21,307 nt of DNA from Planctomycetota bacterium (GTDB taxonomy: Bacteria; Planctomycetota; SZUA-567; H5-PLA8), in assembly GCA_045863855.1 (NCBI GenBank), contig BTVV01000106.1, positions 1 through 21,307 on the forward strand, given 5' to 3'. Under the pieces are notes generated by a model. That model ran no database searches, was not told where the DNA came from, and saw only the letters and a program-made list of their open reading frames with translations. Of this stretch, positions 2,551 to 21,307 are shown piece by piece. How positions within the stretch are numbered: the stretch's first letter is position 1; every line of letters starts with the position of its first letter. Position numbers and translations under genes: made by a program.

Positions 2551-3597
2551 TCACCCTTTTCCATCAATTTTTTGAGGGCTCACTTGCCAGCGCTCCAGAG
2601 ACTTGCGGCCCAGCACCCTCGCCGCGTTCGTGAAGACCGGATCCGGGTAGCCCCACGCACGCTTGATTGCCACATCGCGCGCCAGAAAACTCCAAATCGT
2701 GTTGATTGCGCGGGCCTGCGAGAAGCCCAGCTTGCGCAGCGACCAGAGCGCGTTTGGCGGCACCGGATAATCGCTGCCGTGAATCAGCTTCGGCAGCACG
2801 CCTTCCTCGCGCAAGAAGTAGCGCAGCCAGCGCGATCGCCCCGGCGTGGTGAACGCCGATGTGTCGCCGTAGCAGTTGGGATACTCGCGTGCAAGCCGAA
2901 TGAACTCGCGCGTCCAATTCCCGTCGAAGATGCCGCTGCGCGTCCCGCAATGCGCCATCACGACGGTCACGCCGCGATCCAGCGCCGGGCGCAGCATCGC
3001 CGGATCGCCCAGTTCGGGCCGAATCACGCTCACCGTATGCTCCCCGCCGGTGTGGGAAATCAGCGGCAGCCCGTGCTTCACGAGCAGATCGTAGAGCGGT
3101 ACGCAGCGCTTATCCCGCGGATCCATGGCCTGGCTGTTGGGCAGCCATTTCAACGCCACCGCGCCGCGCTCGATCCAGCGCTCCAGTTCCTCCACGGCAT
3201 CTTTGCGATACGGATGAATGCTGCACGCCGGCAGCATTCGCCCGCGCAGTTCGGAGCGCTCGCAGACCGCGAACGCGTATTCGTTCGGAACGTACAGCTC
3301 CTGCCCGGTCGCGGCCGGCGAGCCGTCCTCGGCGTAGATGCGTTCGTGCGCGAATACAACGGCGCCATGCAGCAGCTTCCGCTCCGCCGCCTCCGCCAGA
3401 TCCTTGTCGAGCCGTTCGAGGTACGCTTGGTCCAGCCGCTCGTGCTTATGCGCGTCGTAGATTTCCAGCTTCCAGCGCATCAGCTTGTAGAGCAGCGAAT
3501 GAAATTTACGCTCGGCAATGAAGCAGCCCGTTCCGCCGTGCCCCAAGCCGGCAAGGTGGGTGTGAATATCCAGCACCGGCAGCGCGGAATCGCTCAT
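2551..3597 (-). CDS. Amidohydrolase family protein (Amidohydro_2, metal-dependent TIM barrel)
   Basis: DIHTH (HxH) metal motif, SIHPY, LKWLP, SHTGGE, MAHCG, GDTS and HGSDYP motifs in the expected order. Confidence 0.92.
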   Translation of the reverse strand: MSDSALPVLDIHTHLAGLGHGGTGCFIAERKFHSLLYKLMRWKLEIYDAHKHERLDQAYLERLDKDLAEAAERKLLHGAVVFAHERIYAEDGSPAATGQELYVPNEYAFAVCERSELRGRMLPACSIHPYRKDAVEELERWIERGAVALKWLPNSQAMDPRDKRCVPLYDLLVKHGLPLISHTGGEHTVSVIRPELGDPAMLRPALDRGVTVVMAHCGTRSGIFDGNWTREFIRLAREYPNCYGDTSAFTTPGRSRWLRYFLREEGVLPKLIHGSDYPVPPNALWSLRKLGFSQARAINTIWSFLARDVAIKRAWGYPDPVFTNAARVLGRKSLERWQVSPQKIDGKG

Positions 3598-3610
3598 GCG
3601 GGAGGAAGTC

Positions 3611-5467: not shown

Positions 5468-5543
5468 GCGTAAGCCCTCCGAGGCAGGTTACGCAGCAGG
5501 CTAGATCAACGGGACAGGCTTGGCGAGCGGGGAAAGGAATGCC

Positions 5544-6902: not shown

Positions 6903-6982
6903 GAGTGCTTCCCTCGAACCCGGAGACGAACCCTAATGCGCATGAACGCAGGAGCAGCCTGAAAGTTCTATAAAATAGGCTG

Positions 6983-7582
6983 CTATTTTGACTGCGCGCA
7001 CCCGTAGTGCATCCGCGCCAGGGGCGGTAGGCCGGCCACCAACTGGCCCTCGGCGGCGCGTAATGTTTCCAAGCGCGACGTGGCTCGAGCTTCCCCGTAT
7101 TGCCCGACCGCCAAGTCCACAAAGAGCACATAATGATTCACTTCGCTGGCGTAGAGATCTTCGTAAAACCCGGACAGCGCTTGGCCTTTCAGTTCGTCCG
7201 CCAGCAATCGGAAGCGTTCGGCGCTGCGTGCTTCGATCAGGCTGCAAACGAGCAGCATATCGAGAAAGTTTCCATTCCCTTCCTGCGCCGCAGCTTTGCG
7301 CAGACCTTGCACGTACGCGCTGCCGCCCTTCGGAGCCGCCGGCCACGGATAGCGTGCCCGGATTTCGCGCTCGACTTGCCGCGCATGTTCCATCTCTTCG
7401 TTGGCCAGATCGGTCATCAACTTCTTAAGCGCTGGAACTTTCGAGCCGTGCACCCGTAACGTCCGGTGCGCCATCGCCGCGGCTTTCAGTTCGCAGAAAT
7501 AATGATCGAGCAAGAGGGCCGCCGGATCGGCGAGCACCTGCTGCGCCCACGCGGGCGGGGTCTGATAATGCAGTCCAAGCAC
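6983..7582 (-). CDS. miaE: tRNA-(ms2io6A37) hydroxylase MiaE (ferritin-like di-iron)
   Basis: TPPAW..LLLDHYFCELKAA, EEMEH, LIEARSAERF and LYASEVNHY match MiaE signature motifs. GTG start. Confidence 0.92.
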   Translation of the reverse strand: MLGLHYQTPPAWAQQVLADPAALLLDHYFCELKAAAMAHRTLRVHGSKVPALKKLMTDLANEEMEHARQVEREIRARYPWPAAPKGGSAYVQGLRKAAAQEGNGNFLDMLLVCSLIEARSAERFRLLADELKGQALSGFYEDLYASEVNHYVLFVDLAVGQYGEARATSRLETLRAAEGQLVAGLPPLARMHYGCAQSK

Positions 7583-7596
7583 CCGCGTATGATGCG

Positions 7597-7620
7597 CGCT
7601 TGCCGCCTAGGCGGCAAGCG
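7597..7620. promoter_or_regulatory. Perfect 24 bp palindrome CGCTTGCCGCCTAGGCGGCAAGCG in the miaE/alaC divergent region, overlapping the candidate miaE -35
   Basis: Directly readable self-complementary sequence. On the minus strand TTGCCG (7617-7612), 17 bp, CATCAT (7594-7589). Function inferred. Confidence 0.6.
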
Positions 7621-7713
7621 AAGAGGAGTGCACAATCCCCCGCCCTTCCTGGCAGCGTTCGGCCTCACCCGTTAGGATGTGCGCGGGTTGAGCCAACGAA
7701 CGGAATCGATGCC

Positions 7714-8949
7714 ATGTCTACGCCAAACCAGCCCACGGGGCTGCCCAACGGTTTTCCCGATCCCAACGCGCGGCGCATGAGCCTGCTGCCGCCGTATTTG
7801 CTGGGACGGATCAACGCCTACAACGACGAACTGCGCGCCCAAGGCGTCGACGTGATCGACCTCGGCATGGGCAATCCCGTCGACCCGATCCAGGCCGAAG
7901 TGCTCGAAACGATGCGTGCATCGCTCGGCGAGGTGCCCAACCATCGCTACAGCCAGGCCAAGGGGATTCTGCCGCTCAAACAGGCCTTCGCGCGACACTA
8001 CGCGCGGCATTTCAAGGTCGAGTTGGATCCCAAAGAGGAGATCATCGCGACCATCGGCAGCAAGGAAGCCTTCAGCCACTTGATGCTGGGGATGCTGGGA
8101 CCCGGCGATTCGTGCGTGGTGCCGACCCCGGCCTTCACGATCCACATGTACGCGCCGCAGATCGCCGGAGCCAGCGTAATTGGCGTGTACATGAAGGAAG
8201 AGCAGCCTGGGCCGCAGTTGCTCGCGGACATCAAATACGCGCTCGAAACCGTCCGCCCGCGCCCGAAGCTCCTGATTCTGAACTTCCCGCATAACCCCAC
8301 CGCGCGGACGGTGGACTTGGGCTTTTACGAAGAGGCCGTGGCGCTGGGCAAGCACTTCGGCGTCTGGGTGCTCAACGATTTCGCCTACGGCCACTCGTGC
8401 TTCGACGGCTACCAGGCGCCCAGCATCCTGCAGGTCAAAGGCGCGAAGGATATCGCGGTCGAAACCTTCACCATGTCCAAGCCCTACAACATGGCCGGCT
8501 GGCGCGTGGGCTTCCTGGCCGGCTCGCGCCATCTCGTCGATATCCTGGCGCGGATCAAGGGCTACTTCGATTACGGCATCTTTCAGTGCATCCAACTTTC
8601 CGCGGTCACGGCGCTCGATGGCGGCGATACGCTCATCAAGCAGCAGTCGCTGCTTTACGAGAAGCGCCGTGACGCGTTGCTCGAAGGCCTCAAAAAGGCC
8701 GGCTGGAAGAAGACGATCAAAAATCGCGGCACCATGTTCAGTTGGCAGCCGCTGCCCGACCATCCGAAAGTGAAGGGCATGAACTCGGTGGACTTCTGCT
8801 TCACGCTCGCCCGGGAGACCGGCGTCAGCTTCACGCCGGGCGGCGGGTTCGGTCCCGAAGGCGACAGCCACCTGCGCATGGCGCTGGTGGCGCCCGAAGC
8901 GCGTATCGCCGAAGCCTGTGCGCGCATCGGAAAATTTTTGCAGGCTTGA
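7714..8949 (+). CDS. alaC: PLP-dependent aminotransferase class I/II, AlaC (YfdZ)-like
   Basis: IDLGMGNP, TIGSKE, NFPHNPT, DFAY, SKPYNMAGWRVGF (PLP lysine) and LARIKGYFDYG closely follow AlaC. Substrate (Ala versus LL-DAP) not provable from sequence. Start set at ATG 7714 (7777 is an alternative). Confidence 0.9.
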   Translation: MSTPNQPTGLPNGFPDPNARRMSLLPPYLLGRINAYNDELRAQGVDVIDLGMGNPVDPIQAEVLETMRASLGEVPNHRYSQAKGILPLKQAFARHYARHFKVELDPKEEIIATIGSKEAFSHLMLGMLGPGDSCVVPTPAFTIHMYAPQIAGASVIGVYMKEEQPGPQLLADIKYALETVRPRPKLLILNFPHNPTARTVDLGFYEEAVALGKHFGVWVLNDFAYGHSCFDGYQAPSILQVKGAKDIAVETFTMSKPYNMAGWRVGFLAGSRHLVDILARIKGYFDYGIFQCIQLSAVTALDGGDTLIKQQSLLYEKRRDALLEGLKKAGWKKTIKNRGTMFSWQPLPDHPKVKGMNSVDFCFTLARETGVSFTPGGGFGPEGDSHLRMALVAPEARIAEACARIGKFLQA

Positions 8950-8982
8950 AGAACGCCGCGAGCGACCCAGAATAACCGCGCC

Positions 8983-9813
8983 ATGAACGATACCGAAAAG
9001 CCCCAGCCCATGCCCGAAGACGCGGCCGCCGAATCCGGCGCCGATGCGGCGGAGGCCGCGCCGCCGCCGAAACCCAAGCGCCGACGGAACAAGAAACTCG
9101 ACTTGAGCCACTCGCGGCTCGCCGAAGATGCCGAAACCGCCCCGGTTACGGCCGAACCACAGCCGGAGCAAGCGCGGCAAGCCCCCGCCGAAGAGACCCA
9201 GGCAACCGAAGCCGCTGCGCCGGCCGCCGAAGAGGAGCACGAGCCCGTCGAGGGCGACGCGGAGTCGGATGCCGAGCCGGAACCTGAGATCGATCTCGTC
9301 GCGCTTCAGCGCACGCTCGAAGCGCTGCTCTTTTCGGCAGATCACGCGCTGAGCACGCGCGAACTGGGCCGCGCGGCAGGCGTCAAAGTCGTGACCGTCC
9401 GTAAAGCGATGCGCGAACTCGGCTTGCGCTACGACGTCGAACAGCGCGCATGGATGCTTTCCGAAGTCGCCGGCGGCTGGCAGCTCGTCACGCGCCCCGA
9501 TTTTCATCCGGCGATCCAGAAGCTCCGCGCCAGCCGTTCGCAACGCAAGCTGACCCAAGCCGCGCTCGAAACCCTGGCCCTCATCGCCTACAGCAAAGAG
9601 CCGATCGGACGGTCCGAGATCGAAGGCGTGCGCGGCGTAGAAGCCGGTGCGGTCCTGCGCCAGCTCCTCGACCGCAAGCTGATCAAAATCGCCGGCCGCG
9701 GCACGGGCCTCGGCCAGCCGCTCCTCTACGCCGTCTCCAACGAATTCCTCGAGCATTTCGGATTGAAATCGGCCGCCGAATTGCCGCGCAGCGGCGAACT
9801 CAAAGGCATGTAG
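8983..9813 (+). CDS. scpB: SMC-Scp complex subunit ScpB with long acidic N-terminal extension
   Basis: LEALLFSA, EVAGGWQLVTRP, LTQAALETLALIAY, RSEIEGVRGV and PLLY..FLEHFGL..ELP motifs. Confidence 0.95.
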   Translation: MNDTEKPQPMPEDAAAESGADAAEAAPPPKPKRRRNKKLDLSHSRLAEDAETAPVTAEPQPEQARQAPAEETQATEAAAPAAEEEHEPVEGDAESDAEPEPEIDLVALQRTLEALLFSADHALSTRELGRAAGVKVVTVRKAMRELGLRYDVEQRAWMLSEVAGGWQLVTRPDFHPAIQKLRASRSQRKLTQAALETLALIAYSKEPIGRSEIEGVRGVEAGAVLRQLLDRKLIKIAGRGTGLGQPLLYAVSNEFLEHFGLKSAAELPRSGELKGM

Positions 9814-9847
9814 CTTCATTCGCCGATGGCAAGCTAAGGAGCGGTAC

Positions 9848-10678
9848 ATGGCGCGCGTAACGGTACGGATGATAGGCGCGATCGCCGGTCTGCTATTGGC
9901 CGCGGGCTGCAGCAAGCCCGACGCCACGCCGCCCAAGACGCCTCCCATTCCGGTGGCCGTGCCCACGCCCACCGAACCCGCCCCGGTGAAAGCCGCCGAA
10001 TTCGCCAACCCCAAGCCCGACCTCTGTCCCGTCAGCGGCGACCCCATCGACCCGCAAGTAACCTTCGAAGCCGGCGGCAAGAAGTACGCGTTCTGCTGCG
10101 AGCATTGCATGGAAGATTTCAAAGCCGAACCGGCCAAATATCTTCCCGCGGCCGGCGCACCGCCCGCCAAGCCCGCGGAATCCCCGCCCGCCGCCCCTGC
10201 CGATTGGTCCGCGCTGGAGTTCGGCAAGAAGACCAAACACTCCGTCGCCATGCCCCAGACCTGGAAAAGCGAAGAACGCGCCAACAACCTGCGCCTCTGC
10301 CAAGTCCGCGTCCCGAAGTCCGAAGGCGACGCCGACGATGCCGAACTGGTCGTCTTCTCCTTCCCGGCCGCCGGCGGCGTGGAAGGCAACCTCAAGCGCT
10401 GGGCCGGACAGTTCGGCGGCGAAGACGCGCTGCGCGGGCGCAAGGACGATCTGCCCACGGCCGGCGGCCAGAAGGCCAGCATCGTCGAATACGAAGGCAC
10501 CTACACCGGCATGAATCCGCAGGCCGAAGGCACGCTCGCGCCGAAAGCGGAATACAAGATGTTGATCGGCGTGATCCACGCCGAGGACGCGCAATACTAT
10601 TTGAAGCTCGTCGGCCCGCAGCAAACCATCGACGCGCAAGCCGACGCCTTCTACAAAATGATTCAGTCCTTCAAATAA
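9848..10678 (+). CDS. Lipoprotein with YHS/TRASH-type metal-binding domain and C-terminal PsbP/Mog1-like domain of unknown function
   Basis: AAGGA RBS, lipobox LAAG-C21, Pro-rich linkers, CPVSG..YAFCCEHC..F..EPAKY, and C-terminal GGVEGNLKRWAGQF..YLKLVGP. Confidence 0.82.
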   Translation: MARVTVRMIGAIAGLLLAAGCSKPDATPPKTPPIPVAVPTPTEPAPVKAAEFANPKPDLCPVSGDPIDPQVTFEAGGKKYAFCCEHCMEDFKAEPAKYLPAAGAPPAKPAESPPAAPADWSALEFGKKTKHSVAMPQTWKSEERANNLRLCQVRVPKSEGDADDAELVVFSFPAAGGVEGNLKRWAGQFGGEDALRGRKDDLPTAGGQKASIVEYEGTYTGMNPQAEGTLAPKAEYKMLIGVIHAEDAQYYLKLVGPQQTIDAQADAFYKMIQSFK

Positions 10679-10681
10679 TCC

Positions 10682-12310
10682 CTATTCCGCGCGCATCCTG
10701 CTCAACGCAGGCGCGATCAGCGACTCCAGCGGCGCGTGCTCGTCGGTCAGCACGCAAACCCCCGGCCGCCGCTTAAGCTCCGCCATTTCTTCCTTCGGAA
10801 TCAACGAACCGTGCATCGGGCCCGTATGCCCGCGCTTCCAGTCGAAGGTCGGCATCGGCGCGCGCCGCGCAACCAAGATAAAGTTGTTCATGCCCTGGGG
10901 CGGGCCGGAGCGTTCCGCAGAGAAAACATACACGTACGGAAACACCTGCTCCAGCGTCGCCACGAAAGCGCCCACCACGCGCCCGCTTTGCCAATCGTCG
11001 ATCACGTTCACCACATAGGAACCGCTGTCCGTCAGGTGTGCCGAAAGCTCCCGCACGAACTCCACCGTAGCCAACTGGTAGGGCATCGAGAACGAGCTGT
11101 ACGCGTCGCCGTAAATCAGTTCGAAGCGCCGCTCGGGCTCGAACTCGGCCACGGCGTTGCGCGCATCCAGCGCCACCGTGCGAATCGCCGTATCGCGCGG
11201 CAATCCCAGCGCCGCGTGGTTCGCTTCCGTCACGCCGGGGTCGATCTCGGCGACGAGCACCTCCGCGCCCGGCCAGCGCCGCAGCACCCAGCGCGGAAAC
11301 GTATAGCTCCCGCCTCCGATCACGAAAACCTTCGGCACTTCTCCCGCCGGCGTCGCGCGCTCCGCCGCGTCGCGCGTCACCCGCTCGAAGGGCATGAACA
11401 AGTACTCCACATCGTCCACGTCCAGCCAGCCGTGTTCGAGCCACTCGATTTGAAGAATCCGGATCGTGCGCCGCTTTCCGTCGCGCTCGAACACCCGTTC
11501 GTAGACCATCACGTGCTGGTACGGACTGTCGGTCTCGAAGAGCAGCCCCGGTTCGGCTTGCAGCCCCAGCGATCGCGCGGCCGGCTCCAGAGGCGGCAGG
11601 CGGCCGCGTGAAGCCAGCAGGAGCGCCACCAGCGCCGCGATCCAACCCGCGTGCAGCGCGCGCCACGGTCCCAGCGCCAGGCCGCCCAAGGCCAGCACCA
11701 GCGCCACGCCCAGCACCACCTGCGTCGAGCCCAGCCACGGCACGAGCCAGAAGCCCGTCGCCAGCGTCCCCACAATGCTCCCCGCCGTGCCCCACGCGTA
11801 CACCGATCCCAGCGCCGTCCCGGTGCGCGTCGCGCCGGACACCGCCCACTTCGCCGCGCCCGGCGAGATCAGCCCCAGCAGCACCGCCGGCCATAGGAAG
11901 ATCGCCAGCACCGTCGTGAAGATCCGCGCCGGCCACGGCCAGCCGCTCAACCAGCCGTACGAGACGAAGCCGCGATTCAATAGCAGCGTCAGCACGCTCG
12001 CGGCGCTCGCTGCCAGAAACAGCCAGCCCAGCGTCGCACGCGGCTCGCGGCGATCGGCCAGCCGCCCGCCCAGCGCATTGCCCAGCGTCAACCCCGCGAG
12101 CATCACGCCGATCACGGACGTCCACGTGTAAAGCGAATTGCCCAGATGCCGCGCGATCAGCCGCGCCGCGACCAACTCCAAGATCATCAGACTGGCGGAA
12201 CTGACGAAGACCAGCAGTTGGGGCGTAAATCGAAATCGCTCGGGAGACGCCGGTTCGGTGGGATTCACGCCGCGTTTCTTACCCAAAGCCGCGACTCGGC
12301 GCAAGATCAA
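10682..12310 (-). CDS. Fused membrane (MFS-like) / spermidine-synthase-like SAM-dependent protein
   Basis: About seven hydrophobic segments with MILELVAARLIARHLGNSLYTW and VYAWGTAGSIVG, then DSPYQHV, VIGGGSY, EIDP, GDAYS and LTDEHAP. Start uncertain (TTG 12310 or GTG 12268). Confidence 0.9.
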   Translation of the reverse strand: MILRRVAALGKKRGVNPTEPASPERFRFTPQLLVFVSSASLMILELVAARLIARHLGNSLYTWTSVIGVMLAGLTLGNALGGRLADRREPRATLGWLFLAASAASVLTLLLNRGFVSYGWLSGWPWPARIFTTVLAIFLWPAVLLGLISPGAAKWAVSGATRTGTALGSVYAWGTAGSIVGTLATGFWLVPWLGSTQVVLGVALVLALGGLALGPWRALHAGWIAALVALLLASRGRLPPLEPAARSLGLQAEPGLLFETDSPYQHVMVYERVFERDGKRRTIRILQIEWLEHGWLDVDDVEYLFMPFERVTRDAAERATPAGEVPKVFVIGGGSYTFPRWVLRRWPGAEVLVAEIDPGVTEANHAALGLPRDTAIRTVALDARNAVAEFEPERRFELIYGDAYSSFSMPYQLATVEFVRELSAHLTDSGSYVVNVIDDWQSGRVVGAFVATLEQVFPYVYVFSAERSGPPQGMNNFILVARRAPMPTFDWKRGHTGPMHGSLIPKEEMAELKRRPGVCVLTDEHAPLESLIAPALSRMRAE

Positions 12311-12315
12311 GCGGC

Positions 12316-13356
12316 CTACTCTTCCTCTTCCACCGCCGGCTTTTCCGTCTTCTTCGCGCCTTCCGGCTTCGCGCCGCCGGCCAACGGATCCAGCGGGTTC
12401 GCCGCCACCGCCGCCGCGCCGGCTTCCTCGACCACCAATTCCAGCCGCGTCGTGCCACGGCGCTTATCGGCGCCCGTGCACGTCGCCGTGAACTTGTAGC
12501 GCCCGGCCTTCGTGCCCGTGCCGCTCAATTCGCCTTCCTTCGAGAGCGTGAAGCCCTCCGGCAAACCCTGCGCTTCGTACGTCAGCGGACGCGCGCCGCC
12601 GCGCGCACTCAGCTTCTGCGTAAACGCCTGGCCCACCCGGGCCGCGTTCAGCGACTCCGTAACCCAGACCGGCTCCAGCTTCAGCGGCAGGCCGTACGGC
12701 TTGAGCTTGCCGCCCGGGACCATGCCTTTGCCGCGTGGAATCTGCGCGTTCCAGCCCAGCACCAGTTGCGGAGCGTCCCCGCCTTTCTCTTTGCTGCGCA
12801 CGCGTACTTGCGCTTCGCTGCCCGGCTCGAGCATCAGGACAAGCCCGTAGTTCGGGCGCTGCTTCATCGCCCACGCCTGCGCCAGCGGCGTCACGTCGAA
12901 CTCCAGCCACCAGCCCGCCTCGCCGCCCATGTCCGTCGTCACGTTGCAGCCGGCCACCGCGATCGGATCCCAATCCCCGCCGTTGTTCACCCACTGGTCG
13001 TCTTCGAGACACAGATCCCAGCTCGCGAACTTCTGGCTCCAGGCGCGCGCCAGCGCGTGGCAGCGGATCGTCTCGGTGCTCTTCGGCCGGCCGATGTTCC
13101 ACGCCTTGATCCGCAGCAACGCCTGAGTCGGCGCTCGCTTCACTTGCTCGAGATCGAACTTCAAGAGCGCGCGGAACTGCCGCCCGTCCGCGCCGCCGTA
13201 AATCTGAAACTCGTCGCGTTCACCGCGGCCGCCCGGCCGGCCCGTCGCGTCGGGCGTCAGATACGTATCGTCGGTGGGCGTCAGCGTCAGCGGGTCCGTC
13301 TGAGCCCACACACCGGCCTGAATCCATACCAACACCCAAAGCCACATCGATCGCAT
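12316..13356 (-). CDS. Secreted protein with DNRLRE/CBM96-like domain and putative Ig-like (He_PIG-type) domain
   Basis: GGAG RBS before ATG 13356, signal peptide (..AGVWAQ), PTDDTYL, RALLKFDL, FDVTPLAQAW..NYGLVL..SKE..PQLV, then GGARPLTY..GLPEGFTLS..G.LSGT..GRY.F. Confidence 0.82.
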   Translation of the reverse strand: MRSMWLWVLVWIQAGVWAQTDPLTLTPTDDTYLTPDATGRPGGRGERDEFQIYGGADGRQFRALLKFDLEQVKRAPTQALLRIKAWNIGRPKSTETIRCHALARAWSQKFASWDLCLEDDQWVNNGGDWDPIAVAGCNVTTDMGGEAGWWLEFDVTPLAQAWAMKQRPNYGLVLMLEPGSEAQVRVRSKEKGGDAPQLVLGWNAQIPRGKGMVPGGKLKPYGLPLKLEPVWVTESLNAARVGQAFTQKLSARGGARPLTYEAQGLPEGFTLSKEGELSGTGTKAGRYKFTATCTGADKRRGTTRLELVVEEAGAAAVAANPLDPLAGGAKPEGAKKTEKPAVEEEE

Positions 13357-13459
13357 CGCTTGCTCCCCGGCATAGTGCTGCCCCGGCGCAGGATACCCCA
13401 AAAGAGTGGTCTATACCACCTGGAAGTGCTTCTGAATCCACGCCTAATAGGGACCCAAT

Positions 13460-13490
13460 AAAAAAGGGCTTCCCGCTTGGCGAGAAGCCC
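13460..13490 (-). terminator. Intrinsic terminator downstream of the cNMP-binding gene
   Basis: Minus strand GGGCUUCUCGC-CAA-GCGGGAAGCCC followed by U6. The 11 bp stem has one G-U pair that works only on the minus strand. Confidence 0.88.
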
Positions 13491-13518
13491 CTTTATGAGC
13501 TTACAGAGATGGATCCGC

Positions 13519-14025
13519 TTAGCGCTTCTTCAACAACGCCGCCTTCTTCCGAGCCACGCGACCCGTCAACTCGGCGATCTTGCGGTCGGCTTCCACCAGC
13601 CGTTCGGCCAGGATCCGCGCGAGGTTCACCGTGATCTGCATCGCGATCGGGTCCTGCGTCTCCAACTTCTTCCGGTACACGTCGCTGGGCAGGACGCCGA
13701 CAATGACGGGCGTAGCCGCGCGGACGGCGGCGATGCGCGGAGCGTTATTCAGCAGCGCGATCTCCCCGAAGAAGTCCGGCGCATCCAGTTCCGCCAGCCG
13801 GAAATGCCCCTTCGACGAACTCTTGATCACGCCCACCTTGCCGCGGCAAAGCATGTACAACCCGTCCGCCTCTTGGCCTTCGCGGAAAAGCAACTGCTGC
13901 TCGGGGTAATCCCGACGCTGCAACCAGGTCATCAATTCGTCCACCTGGGCCTTCGAAAGCCCCTGGAAAATGTTCACCTTCGGCACGGTCTGCTTGAGCA
14001 TCGGCGTTTCGCCTGCGACGGACAT
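13519..14025 (-). CDS. Stand-alone cyclic-nucleotide-binding domain protein
   Basis: GGAGGT RBS before ATG 14025. LFREGQEADGLYML..GKV and phosphate-binding cassette FFGEIALLNNAPRIAAVRA. Ends after the C-helix with no HTH. Confidence 0.92.
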   Translation of the reverse strand: MSVAGETPMLKQTVPKVNIFQGLSKAQVDELMTWLQRRDYPEQQLLFREGQEADGLYMLCRGKVGVIKSSSKGHFRLAELDAPDFFGEIALLNNAPRIAAVRAATPVIVGVLPSDVYRKKLETQDPIAMQITVNLARILAERLVEADRKIAELTGRVARKKAALLKKR

Positions 14026-14196
14026 GTCAGCACCTCCCCATGAGCCCGTATGTCTGGATCTGCCACTCTTTGATGTGTAAATGCGTATGTAGCCTAGCGC
14101 CGACCGAGAATTACCCAAGAGCAGAAGCGGCCCTCGAACGCCTATCGCAAAGCCCGGCATGGCCGCTATGCTGAACGGACCACCGAGTACGCCTAC

Positions 14197-15426
14197 ATGG
14201 ATCCCGTCGTTCTCATCGTCTTCGGCATCGTATACTTGGGCATGCTTGCCGGCCGGTTGCCGTTCCTGGCCATCGACCGCACCGGCGTGGCGGTCCTGGG
14301 CGCCATTGCGCTGCTGGCCAGCGGGCGGCTGAACCTCAAGGAAGTCTGGGACGCGCAAGATGTCCCGACGCTCGCGCTGCTGCTGGGATTCATGGTCCTC
14401 AGCGCACAGCTTCGCCTAGGCGGCTTTTATTCACGCGTGACGCAGCGCATCGCCGGTGCGCAGGTCTCACCGGTCCGGCTCCTGGGTCTCGTTATCGCCG
14501 TCGCGGGCATTCTCTCGGCGCTGCTGGCCAACGACATCGTCTGCTTGGCCATGGCCCCGCTGCTGGCCCACGGTTGCTGGCGGCGTGGACTCGATCCCAT
14601 CCCGTTCCTGCTCGCGCTCGCCTGCGCCTCCAACGTGGGCTCCGCAGCGACCCTGATCGGCAATCCGCAAAACATGCTCATCGGCCAAGCCCTCGCCCTC
14701 GACTTCGCCGGGTACGCAAAGACGGCCCTCGTCCCCAGCGTCCTGGGTTTAGGGCTCACCTGGGGCCTGCTGGGGTGGCTCTACCGCGAGCGCTGGGAGC
14801 TACCCGCCAGCGCGGCGACGAGCGAGCCGCCCGATGCCGAAACGCCTGATTTTAACGCGTGGCAGACGTCCAAGGGGCTGGCGCTCGTGGTCTTGACGGT
14901 CGCCGCGTTTCTCTTCTCCGACTGGCCTCGCGAAGTCCTGGCCTTGGCTGCCGCCGGGATCTGCCTCGCCAGCCGGCGCATGGCCACGCGCCCGATGCTG
15001 GGACTCGTCGACTGGCATCTGCTGCTGCTCTTTATGGGCCTTTTCGTCGTCAACCACGCGCTCCAGGCCAGTGGCGCGCTCGATACGGCGATTCGATCCG
15101 TACGCGAATCCGGCATCGATCCGGCGCACCCCGGCTGGCTCTTCGGCGTGACTGTGGCGCTCTCGAACCTCGTCAGCAACGTGCCCGCCGTGATGCTCCT
15201 GCTGCCCGTGGCGACGCACGAACAAGCCGGACCGATCCTCGCACTCGCCAGCACCTTGGCGGGCAACCTGATTCTGGTGGGCAGCATCGCGAATCTGATC
15301 GTCGCCGAACAGGCCGGGATGCTGGGCTTGAAGATCGATTGGAAGACCCACGCGCGGGTCGGCGTGCCCGTCACGCTGAGCACGCTGGCCGTGGCCGCGG
15401 GATGGCTGTGGCTAACCGCCGGCTGA
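14197..15426 (+). CDS. Ion-transporter superfamily permease (ArsB/NhaD/CitMHS, YbiR-like anion transporter)
   Basis: Very hydrophobic, about 11-12 TM. Motifs IDRTG, LSALLAND, ASNVGSAATLIGNPQN, SNLVSNVPA and STLAGNLILVGSIANLIV. Confidence 0.92.
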   Translation: MDPVVLIVFGIVYLGMLAGRLPFLAIDRTGVAVLGAIALLASGRLNLKEVWDAQDVPTLALLLGFMVLSAQLRLGGFYSRVTQRIAGAQVSPVRLLGLVIAVAGILSALLANDIVCLAMAPLLAHGCWRRGLDPIPFLLALACASNVGSAATLIGNPQNMLIGQALALDFAGYAKTALVPSVLGLGLTWGLLGWLYRERWELPASAATSEPPDAETPDFNAWQTSKGLALVVLTVAAFLFSDWPREVLALAAAGICLASRRMATRPMLGLVDWHLLLLFMGLFVVNHALQASGALDTAIRSVRESGIDPAHPGWLFGVTVALSNLVSNVPAVMLLLPVATHEQAGPILALASTLAGNLILVGSIANLIVAEQAGMLGLKIDWKTHARVGVPVTLSTLAVAAGWLWLTAG

Positions 15427-16200
15427 CGCCGCGCGCACCAAAGCTTCGAAGAGTGCACGCTGCCGCGCATCCTCGGGCATGCGTTCGGGATGCCATTGCA
15501 CGCCCAGCACGAAGCGATTTCCGCGCGCGAAAGCCGCGCCGCTCGCCGGCTCGATGGCTTCAATCACCCCGTCGGGCGCCCACGCCGTCGCCCGCAAGCC
15601 GTCCCCCACTCGCTCCGGCTTCACCGCCTGATGATGGAAGCTGTTGGAGGCCACATCGCCGCCGTCCGCCGCCTGCAGCGTGCGCGCCAGCAGCGAATCG
15701 GCCTCGACCTTCAATGCGTGCCGGTAGTGGTAGCCCGCCTCTCCCGGGCGCTGATCCCGCGCATGCGGCAACGTGCCGTCCGCAACCCACTCGCTTTTCA
15801 AATCCTGGACCAGCGCGCCGCCGCGCGCCAGGCTAATCAACTGGCAGCCGCCGCAAACGCCCAGCACCGGCAGCGCCGTCGCGTCCAGCACGCGCCGCGC
15901 CAGCGCCAGATCGAAGCGGTCGCGCCGCGCATCCATCAGTTCTTCCGCACGCTGCACGCGGCCCGCGTAATGCCGCGGATCGTAGTCCGGGCCTCCGATG
16001 AAGCAGAATCCGTCCAGCGGCTCAAGCGCCGCCTCCAGCAAATCTTCCGACTCCAGCGGCGGGATCACCAGCGGAATGCCGCCGGCACGCACGACCGCGT
16101 CCACGTAGGCCAAGCCCACCGTCATCGCGCCCTTGGCCACGCTGCCGCCGTTGGAAACCGAAGCATTCAAACCGATTACGGGTCGTGAAGTGCGGGACAT
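15412..16200 (-). CDS. Peptidase C26 / gamma-glutamyl-gamma-aminobutyrate hydrolase (PuuD-like) glutamine amidotransferase
   Basis: RPVIG, AGGIP, GGPDYDP, LGVCGGCQ (catalytic Cys), NSFHHQAV and GVQWHPE (His-Glu). GGAGG upstream of ATG 16200. Confidence 0.93.
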   Translation of the reverse strand: MSRTSRPVIGLNASVSNGGSVAKGAMTVGLAYVDAVVRAGGIPLVIPPLESEDLLEAALEPLDGFCFIGGPDYDPRHYAGRVQRAEELMDARRDRFDLALARRVLDATALPVLGVCGGCQLISLARGGALVQDLKSEWVADGTLPHARDQRPGEAGYHYRHALKVEADSLLARTLQAADGGDVASNSFHHQAVKPERVGDGLRATAWAPDGVIEAIEPASGAAFARGNRFVLGVQWHPERMPEDARQRALFEALVRAASAGG

Positions 16201-16231
16201 GGACCGGGAATCCTCCACACGCGGACAGGGT

Positions 16232-16296
16232 AAAACGAAAAGGGTACTTCGCGGGAGCGGGCCGCGCTAGGCGACGCACTCCGGCAAAATACCCTT
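16232..16296 (-). terminator. Long G-U-containing hairpin with U-rich tail between the small ORF and the PuuD-like gene (terminator or attenuator)
   Basis: Minus-strand pairing AAGGGUA/UACCCUU, UUUU/GAAG, GCCGGAGUG/CGCUCCCGC and GUCGC/GCGGC, followed by UUCGUUUU. Confidence 0.6.
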
Positions 16297-16316
16297 CCCC
16301 CCACGCTCGAAAGGGT

Positions 16317-16511
16317 TCAGGCTTGCTGGTTAATCAGCGTCTCGAACTCGACCAGACGGCGACGCAACGCCGCCAATTCCACACCCAGCATTTCCAGGTT
16401 GTGCGCCACGCGGCGCAAGCCGCGCGCCGTGGGCAGGGCCTCATCGGACGGCGCGGACGGCTTACGACCTTCGATCACGCGCAACGTCACCTTCGATCGG
16501 CGTTCCGACAT
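16317..16511 (-). CDS. Small (64 aa) hypothetical protein with C-terminal coiled coil
   Basis: GGGAGG RBS before ATG 16511, host-like codons, fills the gap in a minus-strand run. Heptad pattern LRRVAHNLEMLGVELAALRRRLVEFE. Confidence 0.65.
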   Translation of the reverse strand: MSERRSKVTLRVIEGRKPSAPSDEALPTARGLRRVAHNLEMLGVELAALRRRLVEFETLINQQA

Positions 16512-16555
16512 CCGCAGCCCTCCCGCAAAGCGCGCGAACGGCCGGGGCGATCGGC

Positions 16556-17533
16556 TCACTCCATCGGCCAGCGTCCGCCCATGCGCCGCAACGCTTCTAG
16601 GAAGTCATCGGCTGGCGGAGCCGTGAAGCACAGTCTTTTCCCCGAGACCGGGTGCTCGAACTCCAAGCGCCAGGCGTGCAAGGCGTGCCGCGATAGCTCT
16701 AATTCGGGACAAACGCGCTCGCGGCCGTACACCAGATCGGCCAGGATCGGGAAGCCGGCCTTCGCCAGATGCACGCGAATCTGGTGCGTCCGCCCCGTCT
16801 TGGGCTTGGCCAAAATCAGCGCCGCCGGCGCGCCGGCGCGCTCGAGCTTCTGCAGCGTTTCGAAAGCCGTGAGCGCCGCGCGCCCTTCCTCGGGCCCGCG
16901 CAGCACCGCCATTTCCTTCCGCCGCGTCGGATGCCGCCCGATCCGGCCCTCGCACACGAATTCCGGCTTGAGCGGGTGCCCGTGCGTCAGCGCGAGGTAG
17001 CGCTTCTCGACGCTCCGCGCCATGAACTGTTCTTGCAGGGCCTGATGCGCCGCGTCGTGCTTGGCGGCGACGATCGCGCCGCTCGTTTCGCGGTCCAGCC
17101 GGTGCACGATGCCCGGACGGATCGATCCGTTGATTCCGCTCAAATCGGAGCAATGCGCCAAAAGCGCGTTCACCAGCGTCCCCGTCGCATGCCCCGCGCT
17201 GGGATGCGTGACCATGCCGGCGGGCTTGTTGATTACGATCAGATCGGCGTCTTCGTAGAGCACGTCCAGGGGGATCGCTTCGGGGCGCGCCTCGATCGCT
17301 TCCGGCTCGGGCAGTTCGAGTTCCACACGCTCGCCGCCCTTCACCTTCTTGTTGGGTTTCGCTTCGCGGCCGTCGAAGAGAATATCGCCGCTCTTGAGGA
17401 GCTTGGCCAGGAACGAGCGCGAAAGGTCGGGCCACAACGCCACCAGCGCCACGTCAAGCCGCTGCCCCGCCGCGTCGGGCGGCAAGGCGGCTTCGCGTAT
17501 TCGAGCATCGCCTTCAGGCGCCGATTCGCTCAT
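16556..17533 (-). CDS. rluD: RluA-family 23S rRNA pseudouridine synthase with S4 domain (RluD-like)
   Basis: GQRLD..SRS S4 domain, LYEDADLIVINKPAGMVTHP, RPGIVHRLDRETSG (catalytic Asp), TGRTHQIRVH and ALHA. Confidence 0.93.
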   Translation of the reverse strand: MSESAPEGDARIREAALPPDAAGQRLDVALVALWPDLSRSFLAKLLKSGDILFDGREAKPNKKVKGGERVELELPEPEAIEARPEAIPLDVLYEDADLIVINKPAGMVTHPSAGHATGTLVNALLAHCSDLSGINGSIRPGIVHRLDRETSGAIVAAKHDAAHQALQEQFMARSVEKRYLALTHGHPLKPEFVCEGRIGRHPTRRKEMAVLRGPEEGRAALTAFETLQKLERAGAPAALILAKPKTGRTHQIRVHLAKAGFPILADLVYGRERVCPELELSRHALHAWRLEFEHPVSGKRLCFTAPPADDFLEALRRMGGRWPME

Positions 17534-17566
17534 GCGGCCATGCTACCGCACGCGCGCGGTTGTCGA

Positions 17567-19099
17567 TCACGCTTTCGGCTTGGCCTCCCACGCCACGAGC
17601 GGCTCGCCCCAGGGCAATTGCCGCGCGATGTCGCGGTCGTCCTGCAAGTCCCGCGGATCCTCGCTGCGCACGCACCACTCGAAGAGCTGTGCGCGGAACG
17701 CCCCGCACTCCGCTTGCCGCGCCGGTTCCCGCGCCAAGTTCCGCCGCTCGCCCGGATCGGCCTCCAGATCGTACAGCTCCTCCTCTCCGCGCTTAAACCA
17801 GATGTACTTGCGCGTCGGCGTGCGCACCATCTTGACGTGATCGCCCGGCACGTTGAACGGCGCGCTGTGGCGCAACGGGTGCCCGGGCTCGTCGCGGGAG
17901 CGCCTCCACTCCGAAATGAACGCGGGAAAGTCCGAATACGGATTCTCGAACAACGGCGGACAGATTTCGGCGTGAACCTCGTCGCGGTGGCGGTCGGTGG
18001 CGCCTTCCAGCAGCGCGTCGAGCGACAGGCCCTGCACGCCCTTAGGCACCGTGGCGCCCGCGTAATGGCAGATCGTCGGATGCAGGTCGATCTGCTCCGC
18101 CAGCGCATGGCGCACCGCGCCGGCGGGCAGCACACCGGGGTAACGCAACACGCACGGGATATTCAGCAGGCAGTCGTACAGCACCAGATCCTTCTTCACC
18201 ATCCCGTGGTCGGCGCGGAAATCGCCGTGATCGGACACGTAGATAACAAGCGTATTTTCGCGCATACCCAATTCATCAAGCTTCGACAATATCTTCCCGA
18301 TTTGCTCATCAACAAGGGTGATCATGGCGGAATAAACGGCCATATAGCGGCGTAAATCCGATTCGCTCGCCGCGTCCATCAACTGAGCCTCACGCTTGAC
18401 GGACATCCGCGAGGACTTTCCATTCACCTCATGTCCGCGGGTGGGTCCAACTAAACTCTTGTCTAGAGGTAACTTATCCTCTGGGTACAGCCCGGATAAC
18501 CGACGCGGCGCGGTATGCGGCGCATGCGGATCCTGGAAACTTACCCACAGGAAAAACGGATCGTCCTGTTTTGCAAACACATCCAGAGCGTCTAATCCCG
18601 CCTGGCCGATCTTATAAGTACTGGAGTGCTTTTCCGGCAGGTCGTGAAACCGCGCACCGGCCCAGGACCCCTTGTGATACATGTCTTCCCGAATGGCCTT
18701 CAGATGCGCTTCCCACTCCGGGGTTCCACCGCTTTTAAGGTCCGCTCTACAGATATCCAGCGGCTCCAAATCGCGCGGATAGAACATGTGGTTCTTTCCG
18801 ACCAAACCAGTCTTATATCCACGATCCTTGAGTATCCGGAAGAGATGTGGCTCGCCTGGACCGATGTTGGAGTTGTTTTCACGTACGCGATGGCTATGCG
18901 GATAGCGGCCCGTGACGAAGTTGCTCCGGCTGGGCACGCAGACCGGCGACTGCGCGAACATACGCCTTAAGCTAACCCCTTCCGCCGCAAGATGATCCAG
19001 CGACGGCGTGTGCATCCAAGGCGTCACCGCGCCAAGCGCGTCGGCGCGGTGCTGGTCGGACATGATCCAGAGGATGTTCGGGCGATCGGTGCGAGCCAT
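17567..19099 (-). CDS. Cys-type formylglycine-dependent sulfatase (S1 family), no signal peptide
   Basis: RPNILWIMSDQHR, CVPSR..TGRY, GKNH, DPHAP, SDHGD and LYDLEADPGE. AGGAGG RBS. Confidence 0.95.
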   Translation of the reverse strand: MARTDRPNILWIMSDQHRADALGAVTPWMHTPSLDHLAAEGVSLRRMFAQSPVCVPSRSNFVTGRYPHSHRVRENNSNIGPGEPHLFRILKDRGYKTGLVGKNHMFYPRDLEPLDICRADLKSGGTPEWEAHLKAIREDMYHKGSWAGARFHDLPEKHSSTYKIGQAGLDALDVFAKQDDPFFLWVSFQDPHAPHTAPRRLSGLYPEDKLPLDKSLVGPTRGHEVNGKSSRMSVKREAQLMDAASESDLRRYMAVYSAMITLVDEQIGKILSKLDELGMRENTLVIYVSDHGDFRADHGMVKKDLVLYDCLLNIPCVLRYPGVLPAGAVRHALAEQIDLHPTICHYAGATVPKGVQGLSLDALLEGATDRHRDEVHAEICPPLFENPYSDFPAFISEWRRSRDEPGHPLRHSAPFNVPGDHVKMVRTPTRKYIWFKRGEEELYDLEADPGERRNLAREPARQAECGAFRAQLFEWCVRSEDPRDLQDDRDIARQLPWGEPLVAWEAKPKA

Positions 19100-19129
19100 G
19101 GCGCGAGGCCTCCTTTACGAGGCCTGCAT

Positions 19130-19151
19130 TTTACATGCAATCCTATGTAAA
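19130..19151. promoter_or_regulatory. Interrupted palindrome TTTACAT-N8-ATGTAAA upstream of the sulfatase, candidate operator overlapping a minus-strand TAAAAT -10
   Basis: Arms at 19130-19136 and 19145-19151 are exact reverse complements in an AT-rich spacer. Confidence 0.5.
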
Positions 19152-19197
19152 CCATTAGGCTATATGCGCATAAGCATGGAAAATTACAGCAAACAAC

Positions 19198-20013
19198 TCA
19201 GGGATTCGCAGGCGCGGGAGCTGCGGCGCGGCGCGGCGGGGCTTTGCCGTCGGGAAGCGCGATGCCGGGGGAATCGAGGAGGCTTTGGAGGTACTTGGCT
19301 TGGGAGCGCCAGCTCTGGCGGTCGAATTGGCTGTCGCTGCTCGATTGCAAAGCCTTTGATATCCAGCGCTTAGCTTCTTCGCGGGCGGAGGAGGCGTCTT
19401 CGTTTTTGGCTTCGAGCGCGCGGGCTTGATACCAGTAGGTGCGGCCAAGCTGGTAGCAGAGTTTGGGGAAGAGGAAGTGCTGCTCGTACTCTGTAACTGC
19501 TTGCTTGAACGTAGTTTGCGCGGCTTCGGTGGAACCGGCCTGCTCTTGTGCAAGTCCGAGTCCTTCGGCGGCCAAGGCGCCAAATATAACATGCGTGCGG
19601 AACTCTTTGTGCGCGAGCTCGAAGACTTTCGTCGCGCGGTCGAGGCTGGCGGAGCGTTCGGAGGGCGGCCGCTCGGGGCGCAGCGCGTCTTCAAAGTGAA
19701 TCTGGGCCAGGAGTAGCATCACGTACGGATGCGCTTCGGTGCCGCGGACGTCGTCCCAGGTCTTCTCGAGCGCTTCGACGCGCTCGCGGCCGGTCTCTTT
19801 GTCCTTGAGCGCCACGAATACGGCGTCCCAGGAATCCCGGGCCGAGCGCAGGCGTCTATCTTCCATCTTGCGAACGACTAACAGCGACGCGACGGAGATG
19901 ACCAGCAGCGCAATCAGGCCGATCACGACGAACGGCATCAGCGCGGTGATCGCTTCGAACTTCGTCCCGGCGCCGGTGGCGCTGTCGGGCGTGGCGGTGT
20001 CGGATACGGCCAT
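19198..20013 (-). CDS. Single-pass membrane-anchored tetratricopeptide-repeat protein (YfgM-like)
   Basis: AGGAG RBS, one N-terminal TM (FVVIGLIALLVISVASLLVV), TPR-like helices (LLLAQIHF, AAEGLGLAQEQAG..AA..F, YQLGRTY..A..W). Confidence 0.78.
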   Translation of the reverse strand: MAVSDTATPDSATGAGTKFEAITALMPFVVIGLIALLVISVASLLVVRKMEDRRLRSARDSWDAVFVALKDKETGRERVEALEKTWDDVRGTEAHPYVMLLLAQIHFEDALRPERPPSERSASLDRATKVFELAHKEFRTHVIFGALAAEGLGLAQEQAGSTEAAQTTFKQAVTEYEQHFLFPKLCYQLGRTYWYQARALEAKNEDASSAREEAKRWISKALQSSSDSQFDRQSWRSQAKYLQSLLDSPGIALPDGKAPPRRAAAPAPANP

Positions 20014-20102
20014 ACTGGCTTTAACTCCTGATTACGCAAAGGCTAAAAGCAATCCCGTGCACCGTGCGGTCACGGCGCTTTCCCGAGCTATACGGGCCTC
20101 AC

Positions 20103-20131
20103 AGGTTACGAAACTCCTCGCTCCGCGTCAA
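20103..20131 (-). promoter_or_regulatory. sigma70-type promoter TTGACG-17bp-TAACCT for the TPR gene
   Basis: -35 at 20131-20126, -10 at 20108-20103, exact 17 bp spacing. Confidence 0.62.
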
Positions 20132-20165
20132 CGGCAGCTTGCATAATCTTTGACGCGCAAGCGGA

Positions 20166-20195
20166 TTGGCGGCGGAGGAAGAATCCGGGTATAGT
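20166..20195 (+). promoter_or_regulatory. sigma70-type promoter TTGGCG-18bp-TATAGT for the second sulfatase
   Basis: -35 at 20166-20171, -10 at 20190-20195. GGAGGT RBS at 20227-20232. Confidence 0.55.
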
Positions 20196-20241
20196 TCTAT
20201 CGTAACCTGTCAAAAGACCCCTGCCCGGAGGTACCGCACGC

Positions 20242-21306
20242 GTGCCGCAGAAGCGACCGAACATACTCTTGATTACATCCGATCAGCAACATTGGGATAC
20301 GTTAGGGGTTACAAATTCGAGGATCCGAACGCCGAACCTCGACCGCTTGGCGCGGGAGGGGACGCGGTTCGGGCGCTCGTATTGCTCCAATCCGCTCTGC
20401 TCGCCTTCTCGAAGTTCCATCATCACCGGGCTTTATCCGTCGTCCCACGGCTGCTGGACGATCGGGGTGAAGCTGCCCGAAGACGTGCCGACGGTGGGGC
20501 AAGTCTTTCAGCAGCATGGATATGGAACAACGCTCGTGGGCAAGGCGCACTTCCAGCCACTGGCGTCGCGGGCGGGGAGCCATTCGATCGAATGCCAGCC
20601 GCTTTTACGTAACTTGGACTTCTGGCAAGACTTCCACGGTCCGTGGTACGGCTTCCAGCACGTCGAGACGGCGCGGATGCACGGCGACGAGTCGCACGCG
20701 GGGCAGCATTACGCTATCTGGATGGAGGAACAGGGGTTACACCATTGGCGCGACTACTTTAACCCGTGGCCGCACACGCAGGAGATGAAGCGGCGGCACG
20801 GCGCTTGGGATCTTCCAGAGGCTTACCACTACACGACTTGGACGGCCGAGCGGACGATCGCGAACATCGAACGGCACGCCGGGAACGAGGAGCCGTTCTT
20901 CTTGTGGTCGAGCTTCCACGATCCGCATCCTCCGTATGTCGTTTCGCAGCCTTGGGATACAATGTACAAGCCGGAGCATATGGAGCCGGGCCGGCTGGCC
21001 GCGGGGGAGCTGGAGCGCTGGCCGCCGCACTTCCAGAAGACCCAGGAAGCGCGTCCGGATTACGCGGCGTGGCAGGAGTCCGGATACGGTAACCATGGAT
21101 TCCATAGTCATTTACACGATGAGGCGAGTTTGCGGAAGAACGTCGCGATCTACTACGGGATGATTAGTTTCATGGATCGGCAGATCGGGCGGATCCTGGA
21201 GAGCCTGGACCGGCTGGGGATCGCGGAGAACACGCTCGTGATGTTCAGCACGGATCACGGGCATTTCCTTGGCCAGCATGGACTTACGGCGAAGGGGGCG
21301 TTCCAT
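20242..21306 (+). CDS. Cys-type sulfatase (S1 family), truncated by the right edge and absent from the supplied ORF track
   Basis: Hand translation from GTG 20242: PQKRPNILLITSDQQHWDTLG..RTPNLDRLA..NPLCSPSRSSIITGLYP..GKAHF..SFHDPHPPY..STDHGHFLGQHGL..KG. The frame is still open at the end of the window. Confidence 0.95.
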   Translation, partial: MPQKRPNILLITSDQQHWDTLGVTNSRIRTPNLDRLAREGTRFGRSYCSNPLCSPSRSSIITGLYPSSHGCWTIGVKLPEDVPTVGQVFQQHGYGTTLVGKAHFQPLASRAGSHSIECQPLLRNLDFWQDFHGPWYGFQHVETARMHGDESHAGQHYAIWMEEQGLHHWRDYFNPWPHTQEMKRRHGAWDLPEAYHYTTWTAERTIANIERHAGNEEPFFLWSSFHDPHPPYVVSQPWDTMYKPEHMEPGRLAAGELERWPPHFQKTQEARPDYAAWQESGYGNHGFHSHLHDEASLRKNVAIYYGMISFMDRQIGRILESLDRLGIAENTLVMFSTDHGHFLGQHGLTAKGAFH

Positions 21307-21307
21307 T

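What the first reader, a model, noticed from the sequence alone, without database searches (positions are those of the whole stretch)
17567..21307. Strand-asymmetry polarity flips at about 18.2-19.2 kb, apparently inside or next to an intact gene
Seen: left of about 18.2 kb, + strand genes prefer C-ending codons (gcc, ggc, cgc, gtc) and - strand genes G-ending ones (e.g. gag cgg cgg..gcg cgg in the sulfatase 3' part). Right of about 19 kb this reverses: the - strand TPR gene and the first sulfatase codons are C-ending (cgc ccc..tcc gcc agc ctc gac), and the + strand sulfatase is G-ending (gag cgg acg..gcg). Hand counts on the + strand: minus-strand genes 11641-11700 G17/C29 versus 19621-19680 G29/C16; plus-strand genes 10321-10380 G20/C23 versus 21181-21240 G25/C16. 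Some right-hand lines are near balanced. Known: a C-rich to G-rich switch is the usual polarity of a replication origin. No dnaA is in the window, and an inversion breakpoint would not leave the gene intact. Inference: an unlinked oriC, or a site from which some other strand-asymmetric process (repair, loading, secondary initiation) acts bidirectionally.
Basis: partly seen in the sequence, partly recalled or inferred. Interest (0 to 1): 0.72.

Follow-up and report, generated by a model that had tools for sequence, protein, structure and literature searches.

The report
Bacterial chromosome with ~90 origin-like switches
The strand-composition flip in this window is real, but it is one of roughly ninety along the chromosome of an uncultured Planctomycetota bacterium, forming a saw-tooth pattern like the one multi-origin human chromosomes show, which suggests this bacterium starts DNA replication at many fixed sites instead of one.

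Summary
The flip is real. On the + strand, four-fold codon positions go from G1094/C1757 left of 19.1 kb to G182/C71 right of it, for genes on both strands. The breakpoint lies at 19021-19242. A relative at ~93% identity is colinear across the window and stays G-rich for ~60 kb beyond it, so this is neither misassembly nor a recent inversion. It is not the genome's single oriC: it is the 6th largest of 88 abrupt C-to-G steps, against 37 G-to-C steps, joined by slow declines. Two more genomes of the family show this saw-tooth; a class relative shows two ordinary replichores. Repeat orientation follows local polarity (124 of 144), dnaA is unlinked from dnaN, and parS sites are scattered. No shared motif or initiator was found. 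Best reading: replication starts at dozens of stable sites about 80 kb apart (0.55). Main rival: repair or nick-primed synthesis from hot spots on top of one origin. All evidence is compositional; fork direction was not measured.

The parts
1..19020 (.). C-rich arm left of the step (on the best reading, replicated mostly by leftward forks)
   Evidence: 17 of 17 called genes have negative four-fold skew on either strand; G1094/C1757
17567..19099 (-). Intact 510-aa sulfatase gene whose 5' end overlaps the breakpoint interval
   Evidence: Pfam Sulfatase E 1.6e-46; colinear in G002
18241..19099 (.). A+T-shifted patch inside the sulfatase; skew still negative
   Evidence: Four-fold G+C 0.69 vs 0.95 in the 3' part; 0.74 vs 0.94 in G002
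19021..19242 (.). Interval of the C-to-G step (putative initiation site); amplitude 1.72 units, 6th of 88
   Evidence: Change-point fit; rank; one contig of an independent study spans 18919-20139 with 9 differences and no gap
19100..19197 (.). 98-base spacer with short imperfect repeats; no DnaA box, parS, genome-repeat copy, tRNA or Rfam match
19198..20013 (-). 271-aa membrane-anchored TPR-like protein gene, G-rich on the + strand
   Evidence: G86/C41; weak TPR_8 hit below cut-off; match in 15 of 16 other family genomes
20242..21306 (+). Second sulfatase, cut by the contig end, strongly G-rich
   Evidence: G96/C30, four-fold G+C 0.80; the G001 orthologue, which lacks this sustained step, has skew 0.02 and G+C 0.96

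Best explanation
The flip is one of about 90 preferred sites, roughly every 80 kb, where chromosome replication starts stochastically in this family. Forks leave each site both ways and meet neighbouring forks at variable places. Average fork direction therefore jumps at each site and declines gradually between sites, and strand-biased substitution has written that profile into codon third positions. SHOWN: the saw-tooth, its up/down asymmetry, its independence of gene strand, the orientation of repeats, unlinked dnaA/dnaN and scattered parS. INFERRED: that polarity equals fork direction and that up-steps are initiation sites. GUESSED: initiation is largely DnaA-box-independent, by PriA-type helicase loading at D-/R-loops or easily opened A+T-shifted patches. 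A weak residual main origin may remain at parB-parS.
For: Up-steps outnumber down-steps 88:37, 32:8 and 12:1 at thresholds 0.8, 1.2 and 1.5 (p 6e-6, 2e-4, 3e-3). Codon-shuffled tracks give 3-5 up and 1-6 down. Outward polarity decays 0.61, 0.61, 0.60, 0.47, 0.26, -0.09, -0.23 from 0 to 70 kb. 17 of 88 up-step intervals lie wholly inside a called gene. The pattern recurs in G002, G001 and G005, while G025 gives two replichores with the same method. Repeat copies follow local polarity in 124 of 144 cases (null mean 88, maximum 106), not flanking-gene direction; in G025, 8 of 8 Y1 transposase genes follow its replichores. Genes are co-oriented in 839 of 1469 cases. dnaA and dnaN are adjacent in 0 of 15 family genomes vs 11 of 19 others of the class. 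Human skew N-domains of this shape matched measured fork direction (PMC4729899, passages).
Against: No direct replication data. No universal motif, DnaA-box cluster, shared gene family or Orc1/Cdc6 at the steps. dnaA, dnaB, dnaE, mutS, priA and rnhA are all present. tRNA genes are not co-oriented (17 of 46) and gene co-orientation is weaker than in G025 (57% vs 69%). 37 sharp down-steps exist. Repeats concentrate in polar zones (46% vs 22%) and four-fold G+C rises with polarity (0.85 to 0.91), which a simple mix of two fork directions does not predict. G002 C1 keeps a weak megabase-scale bias (17 of 23 windows negative left of parB; post hoc p 0.035). Step positions are not conserved in G001 (orthologue skew rho -0.07, n 136).
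Confidence: 0.55

Rival explanations
1. One ordinary origin replicates the chromosome, and a second, site-anchored process writes the saw-tooth. Candidates are recurrent nick- or break-primed repair synthesis (for example from HUH/Y1 nicks at hairpin repeats), local run-off over-replication, or strand-specific recombination tracts that fade over 20-60 kb.
For: Non-coding repeats are enriched at up-steps (30 of 129 vs 6.6 expected) and in polar zones. G+C rises with polarity, and changes toward G double without a rise in C>T. 46 of 88 steps look one-sided. A Y1 transposase match lies at a G000 step (C13) and at G001's largest step. The residual megabase bias and intact dnaA.
Against: Local amplitude (about 0.5) far exceeds the residual global bias (about 0.1), so ordinary replication would have to leave almost no trace, unlike in G025. 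Many repeat copies sit where there is no step, and this window's step has no repeat copy. It does not explain unlinked dnaA/dnaN.
Confidence: 0.27
2. A single-origin chromosome scrambled by many old inversions, translocations and islands, with partial amelioration.
For: Gene order differs between G000 and G002 in places. 37 sharp down-steps exist. Low-G+C islands lie at or near several steps. Islands near skew switches are reported (PMC3148964, part 1 of 4).
Against: Inversions should make up- and down-steps alike; simulated inversions added 6-12 up and 17-26 down. 17 of 88 steps lie inside genes. G001's largest step lies between genes whose G000 orthologues are adjacent. The window is colinear with G002. 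Smooth 50-100 kb gradients are not expected.
Confidence: 0.1
3. This spacer is the chromosome's single oriC, unlinked from dnaA.
For: Correct polarity, a local A+T shift, and a large step.
Against: 87 other up-steps, five of them larger. Polarity reverses within ~70 kb on the right and ~35 kb on the left in G002. No DnaA box or parS in the window.
Confidence: 0.03

Closest known systems
Skew N-domains of mammalian chromosomes (PMC4729899, passages read)
   Same: Abrupt upward skew jumps with near-linear decline between them; co-oriented genes near the jumps.
   Different: Here in a bacterium, about 50-110 kb long instead of 0.5-3 Mb, steps often under 1 kb wide, no Orc1/Cdc6 match; fork direction not measured.
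DnaA-independent multi-site replication of Synechocystis PCC 6803, Nostoc PCC 7120 and related cyanobacteria (PMC7198777, passages read)
   Same: Bacterium, dnaA retained, dnaA and dnaN separated, no V-shaped skew.
   Different: Their profiles are described as irregular; here there are strong, position-stable steps shared by genomes ~7% apart. I did not run the codon-level analysis on cyanobacteria, so a hidden saw-tooth there is not excluded.
Putative double bacterial origins (PMC4403523, part 1 of 2 read)
   Same: Extra origins argued from strand asymmetry.
   Different: Two sites with DnaA-box clusters next to replication genes; here about 90 sites without them.
Canonical DnaA-oriC with two replichores (class relative G025)
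   Same: Polarity of each single step; standard replisome genes.
   Different: One up-switch per chromosome, dnaA next to dnaN, parS next to dnaA in G027, G030 and G038.
oriK/stable DNA replication of E. coli rnhA mutants (recalled, not read)
   Same: Several DnaA-independent start sites.
   Different: RNase HI is present here.

Membership tests
Canonical DnaA-oriC | One C-to-G switch per chromosome | tested here: not met
   88 up-steps in G000; signs alternate along G002 C1 and C2
Canonical DnaA-oriC | Cluster of DnaA boxes at the switch | tested here: not met
   No relaxed box in C106 among 98 genome-wide; 4 of 88 steps near a box vs 1.75 expected, p 0.095. Box consensus recalled from E. coli; a divergent box is not excluded.
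Canonical DnaA-oriC | dnaA, dnaN or parS beside the switch | tested here: not met
   dnaA on C24, dnaN on C20, no parS in the window at up to 4 mismatches
Skew N-domains | Excess of upward over downward jumps | tested here: met
   88:37, 32:8, 12:1
Skew N-domains | Gradual decline between jumps, independent of gene strand | tested here: met
   184 of 305 adjacent 8-kb pairs decline
Skew N-domains | Measured fork direction matches skew | not testable with these tools
   Only assembled contigs were offered; repeat orientation is an indirect proxy
Archaeal/eukaryotic multi-origin system | Orc1/Cdc6 initiator | tested here: not met
   Cdc6_C found in 0 of 5 genomes, rings in 3 of 14 controls; G000 is 94% complete. 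MCM not searched.
Cyanobacterial DnaA-independent replication | dnaA separated from dnaN and no V-shaped skew | tested here: met
   0 of 15 family genomes adjacent
Cyanobacterial DnaA-independent replication | dnaA dispensable, flat read depth, polyploidy | not testable with these tools
   Uncultured; no raw reads offered
oriK stable DNA replication | Loss of RNase HI | tested here: not met
   RNase_H E 7.7e-47 in G000; 15 of 16 other family genomes

The most novel reading that the evidence does not exclude
A whole bacterial family has replaced the single-origin programme with about 90 stable, stochastically firing origins per chromosome, without Orc1/Cdc6 and without DnaA-box clusters. The origins turn over between species, and partition sites have been spread round the chromosome by a mobile element. 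This window holds one of the strongest origins.
Probability: 0.45. Interest if true: 0.95.

Novelty: categorically new. Interest (0 to 1): 0.82.

Why it matters
Whether any bacterium naturally uses many fixed origins on one chromosome is a stated open question (PMC4403523); the known exceptions are cyanobacteria with irregular skew (PMC7198777). This family gives about 90 predicted start sites, many mapped to under 1 kb, and a full predicted fork-direction profile that one Okazaki-fragment experiment on an enrichment could confirm or kill. Even the main rival, a site-anchored process strong enough to override replication skew genome-wide, was not found in the searches made. In practice, skew-based checks of assembly and peak-to-trough growth estimates would mislead for these genomes.

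Tried and rejected
Universal motif at steps: 6-9-mer enrichment in 85 step regions gave nothing beyond repeat-derived words, and palindromic dyads gave only hairpin repeats and parS. A+T-rich patches as a general cause: weak; patches at G+C 0.45-0.50 give 9 of 43 up and 0 down, most show no step. Divergent promoters: no enrichment. tRNA or integration sites: 4 of 88 vs 1.5 expected. Shared flanking genes: 22 proteins at 10 of the 88 steps gave unrelated Pfam families; Rfam on those 10 loci gave one tRNA. Chi/KOPS-like polar words: no outstanding 6- or 8-mer. Cytosine deamination as the driver: C>T does not rise with polarity (assumes reversibility, no outgroup). parS as the cause: absent from the window; a large step at 1 of 3 G001 clusters and unclear at the one G002 site. 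Read depth: only contigs were available, so depth is uninformative. A metagenome scan for more orthologous loci gave one 1-kb contig. How G002's contigs join was not examined, so the residual-origin idea stays open. Earlier findings: none returned.
Full report
Setting. The window is the whole contig C106 of G000 (6.93 Mb, 287 contigs, 93.9% complete, 1.5% contaminated). The nearest titled record to a window protein (97% identity, L018) is a Planctomycetota MAG. No gene finder was installed, so I called genes with a self-trained k-mer model (5312 genes, 85% coding). Polarity was scored at synonymous positions on the + strand, corrected for codon family.

Observation. Four-fold skew is negative in 17 of 17 genes left of 19.1 kb and positive in 2 of 2 to the right; pooled G1094/C1757 vs G182/C71, p 5e-25, significant for each gene strand alone. 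The breakpoint interval is 19021-19242. At 18.24 kb the skew does not flip; four-fold G+C falls from 0.95 to 0.69 inside the intact sulfatase, and likewise in G002 (0.94 to 0.74). The G001 orthologues of the two right-hand genes have G+C 0.92 and 0.96 and skew 0.09 and 0.02, against 0.86/0.80 and strongly positive skew here, so the footprint is written into native genes. G001 shows only a short local step at that place (-0.26 to 0.05).

Not an artefact. G002 aligns over all 21,307 bases at 92.8% identity and stays G-rich for ~60 kb right of the flip before declining to negative. One contig of an independent study spans 18919-20139 without a gap.

One of many. Long G000 contigs show abrupt rises and slow declines on genes of both strands. 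Up-steps outnumber down-steps 88:37, 57:22, 32:8 and 12:1 at rising thresholds. Codon-shuffled tracks give 3-5 up and 1-6 down; random inversions added to the real track raise down-steps more than up-steps. The window's step ranks 6th of 88; 42 steps change sign and 46 look one-sided; outward polarity falls from 0.61 to -0.23 over 70 kb. 17 of 88 intervals lie wholly inside genes, fewer than the 33 expected at random but not explained by inversion. In 400 kb of G002 I read five large steps by eye, 44-110 kb apart. Samples along G002 alternate in sign: 8 of 25 positive on C1, 7 of 13 on C2. The dnaA locus shows only a modest, spread-out rise. G001 (same genus, 400 kb) and G005 (same family, 346 kb) show the saw-tooth too, but orthologue skew is uncorrelated with G000 (rho -0.07, n 136; 0.17, n 67). 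G025 (same class, one contig) is the control: 10 spaced windows give two replichores switching near its dnaA-dnaN pair, and 49 of 50 contiguous 4-kb bins are positive. Only these 5 of the 41 genomes were profiled.

Independent signs of fork direction. In 13 non-coding repeat families (one copy per 10 kb, |polarity| > 0.2), 124 of 144 copies take the orientation predicted by codon polarity (null mean 88, maximum 106 in 20,000). Agreement with flanking genes is near chance (76 of 120, 73 of 126). Two large families are balanced in G and C and one is C-rich on the G-rich strand, so this is not composition alone. IS200/IS605 elements insert on the lagging-strand template and are oriented by replication (PMC5027513, passages), and 8 of 8 Y1 transposase matches in G025 follow its replichores. 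That these repeats move the same way is my inference; the few Y1 matches in scored regions of the family are mixed (G002 C1:654 kb and G001 C3:1247 kb disagree with the others). Genes are co-oriented in 839 of 1469 cases, tRNAs in only 17 of 46.

Architecture. dnaA and dnaN are within 5 kb in 0 of 15 family genomes (G009 and G013 left out for lack of a match; some are fragmented) and in 11 of 19 genomes G020-G040 that have both. parS lies within 1.2 kb of dnaA in G027, G030 and G038, was not matched in G025 or G029, and is scattered in G000, G001 and G002, but also in G032. In G000, 6 of 6 scorable parS loci (of 12) have a positive step, mean 0.84, but three of them are where the motif was first noticed. 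In G001, 1 of 3 clusters marks a large step. The window has no parS. dnaA, dnaB, dnaE, priA, mutS, rnhA and parB are present; Cdc6_C was found in 0 of 5 genomes.

What marks a step. Nothing universal: no k-mer, DnaA-box cluster, RNA family or gene family. On average G+C dips to 0.625 from about 0.64, and non-coding repeats are enriched (30 of 129 vs 6.6 expected), though this step has none.

Substitutions. Between G000 and G002, on the G-rich strand, A>G, C>G and T>G roughly double with polarity while C>T does not rise; four-fold G+C climbs from 0.85 to 0.91 and divergence falls from 0.17 to 0.12 (reversibility assumed, no outgroup). Deamination is therefore not the main driver. Lower G+C and higher divergence near termini are reported for ordinary bacteria (recalled), which fits the best reading, but the result fits the main rival as well.

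Mechanism. Most likely, replication initiates stochastically at about 90 stable sites, this being one, with variable termination between them (0.55). The initiator is unknown; PriA-type loading at loops or easily opened patches is a guess. Rivals: hot-spot-anchored repair, nick-primed or run-off synthesis over a single origin (0.27); rearrangement mosaic (0.10); unique oriC here (0.03). A weak main origin near parB may persist (17 of 23 windows negative to its left, post hoc).

Literature. Human N-domains have this shape and matched Okazaki-fragment data (PMC4729899, passages). Some cyanobacteria replicate from multiple sites with irregular skew and separated dnaA and dnaN (PMC7198777, passages). 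Multiple bacterial origins are posed as an open question, with a warning that skew minima can mislead (PMC4403523, part 1 of 2). A survey of ~7000 genomes describes normal, flat, noisy and misassembled patterns (PMC7111523, passages). Islands cluster at skew switches (PMC3148964, part 1 of 4). parS near oriC: search listing and abstract starts only. Eight searches listed no report of such a saw-tooth in a bacterium. The library lacks most subscription papers, and I read no supplements; the per-genome skew tables of PMC7111523 and the figures of PMC7198777 could bear on novelty.

Verdict. A real step, one element of a family-wide saw-tooth that works like eukaryotic N-domains but fails the membership tests for DnaA-oriC, Orc1/Cdc6 and oriK systems. 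Interest 0.82; the replication reading awaits a direct measurement.

Noticed in passing
G001 (16 clusters on C1-C3); G002 (10 places); G000 (12 places): parS palindromes are scattered genome-wide. G001 uses a variant, 33 copies, 3 beside parB. 6 of its 10 weak Y1-transposase matches lie within 5 kb of a cluster, and one G002 match lies 1 kb from a parS, suggesting a mobile element that carries host parS.
   Followed up: partly
G032 (another family of the class): 13 parS sites on at least 5 contigs although dnaA and dnaN are adjacent; scattered parS is not exclusive to this family. Skew not examined.
   Followed up: no
G000 C2:9-11 kb; G002 C1:2.67-2.73 Mb: dnaN, parB-parS and dnaB remain within ~60 kb while dnaA is 0.5 Mb away. 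The strongest negative polarity lies just left of parB; possible relic of the main origin.
   Followed up: partly
G000 genome-wide: Sulfatase genes are over-represented next to up-steps: 7 of 21 motif-selected vs 89 of 1641 size-matched genes; 7 of 43-50 by BLAST family. Post hoc, and two are the window's own.
   Followed up: partly
window 3638-3968: One contig of run X5 carries a dense tract of over 20 differences in an otherwise near-identical strain, resembling a recombined segment.
   Followed up: no
G002 C2:1127712-1131473: A 41% G+C long ORF, possibly foreign, sits 3.5 kb right of the step, close to where contig C106 ends; low-G+C inserts also lie at the ~1014 kb step.
   Followed up: no
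G000 C9:92174: A dif-like spaced inverted repeat (consensus recalled), one of three hits of the pattern; not at a down-step.
   Followed up: no
window 8983-9813 and 6983-7582: scpB with no scpA or smc called in the window, and a miaE homologue.
   Followed up: no
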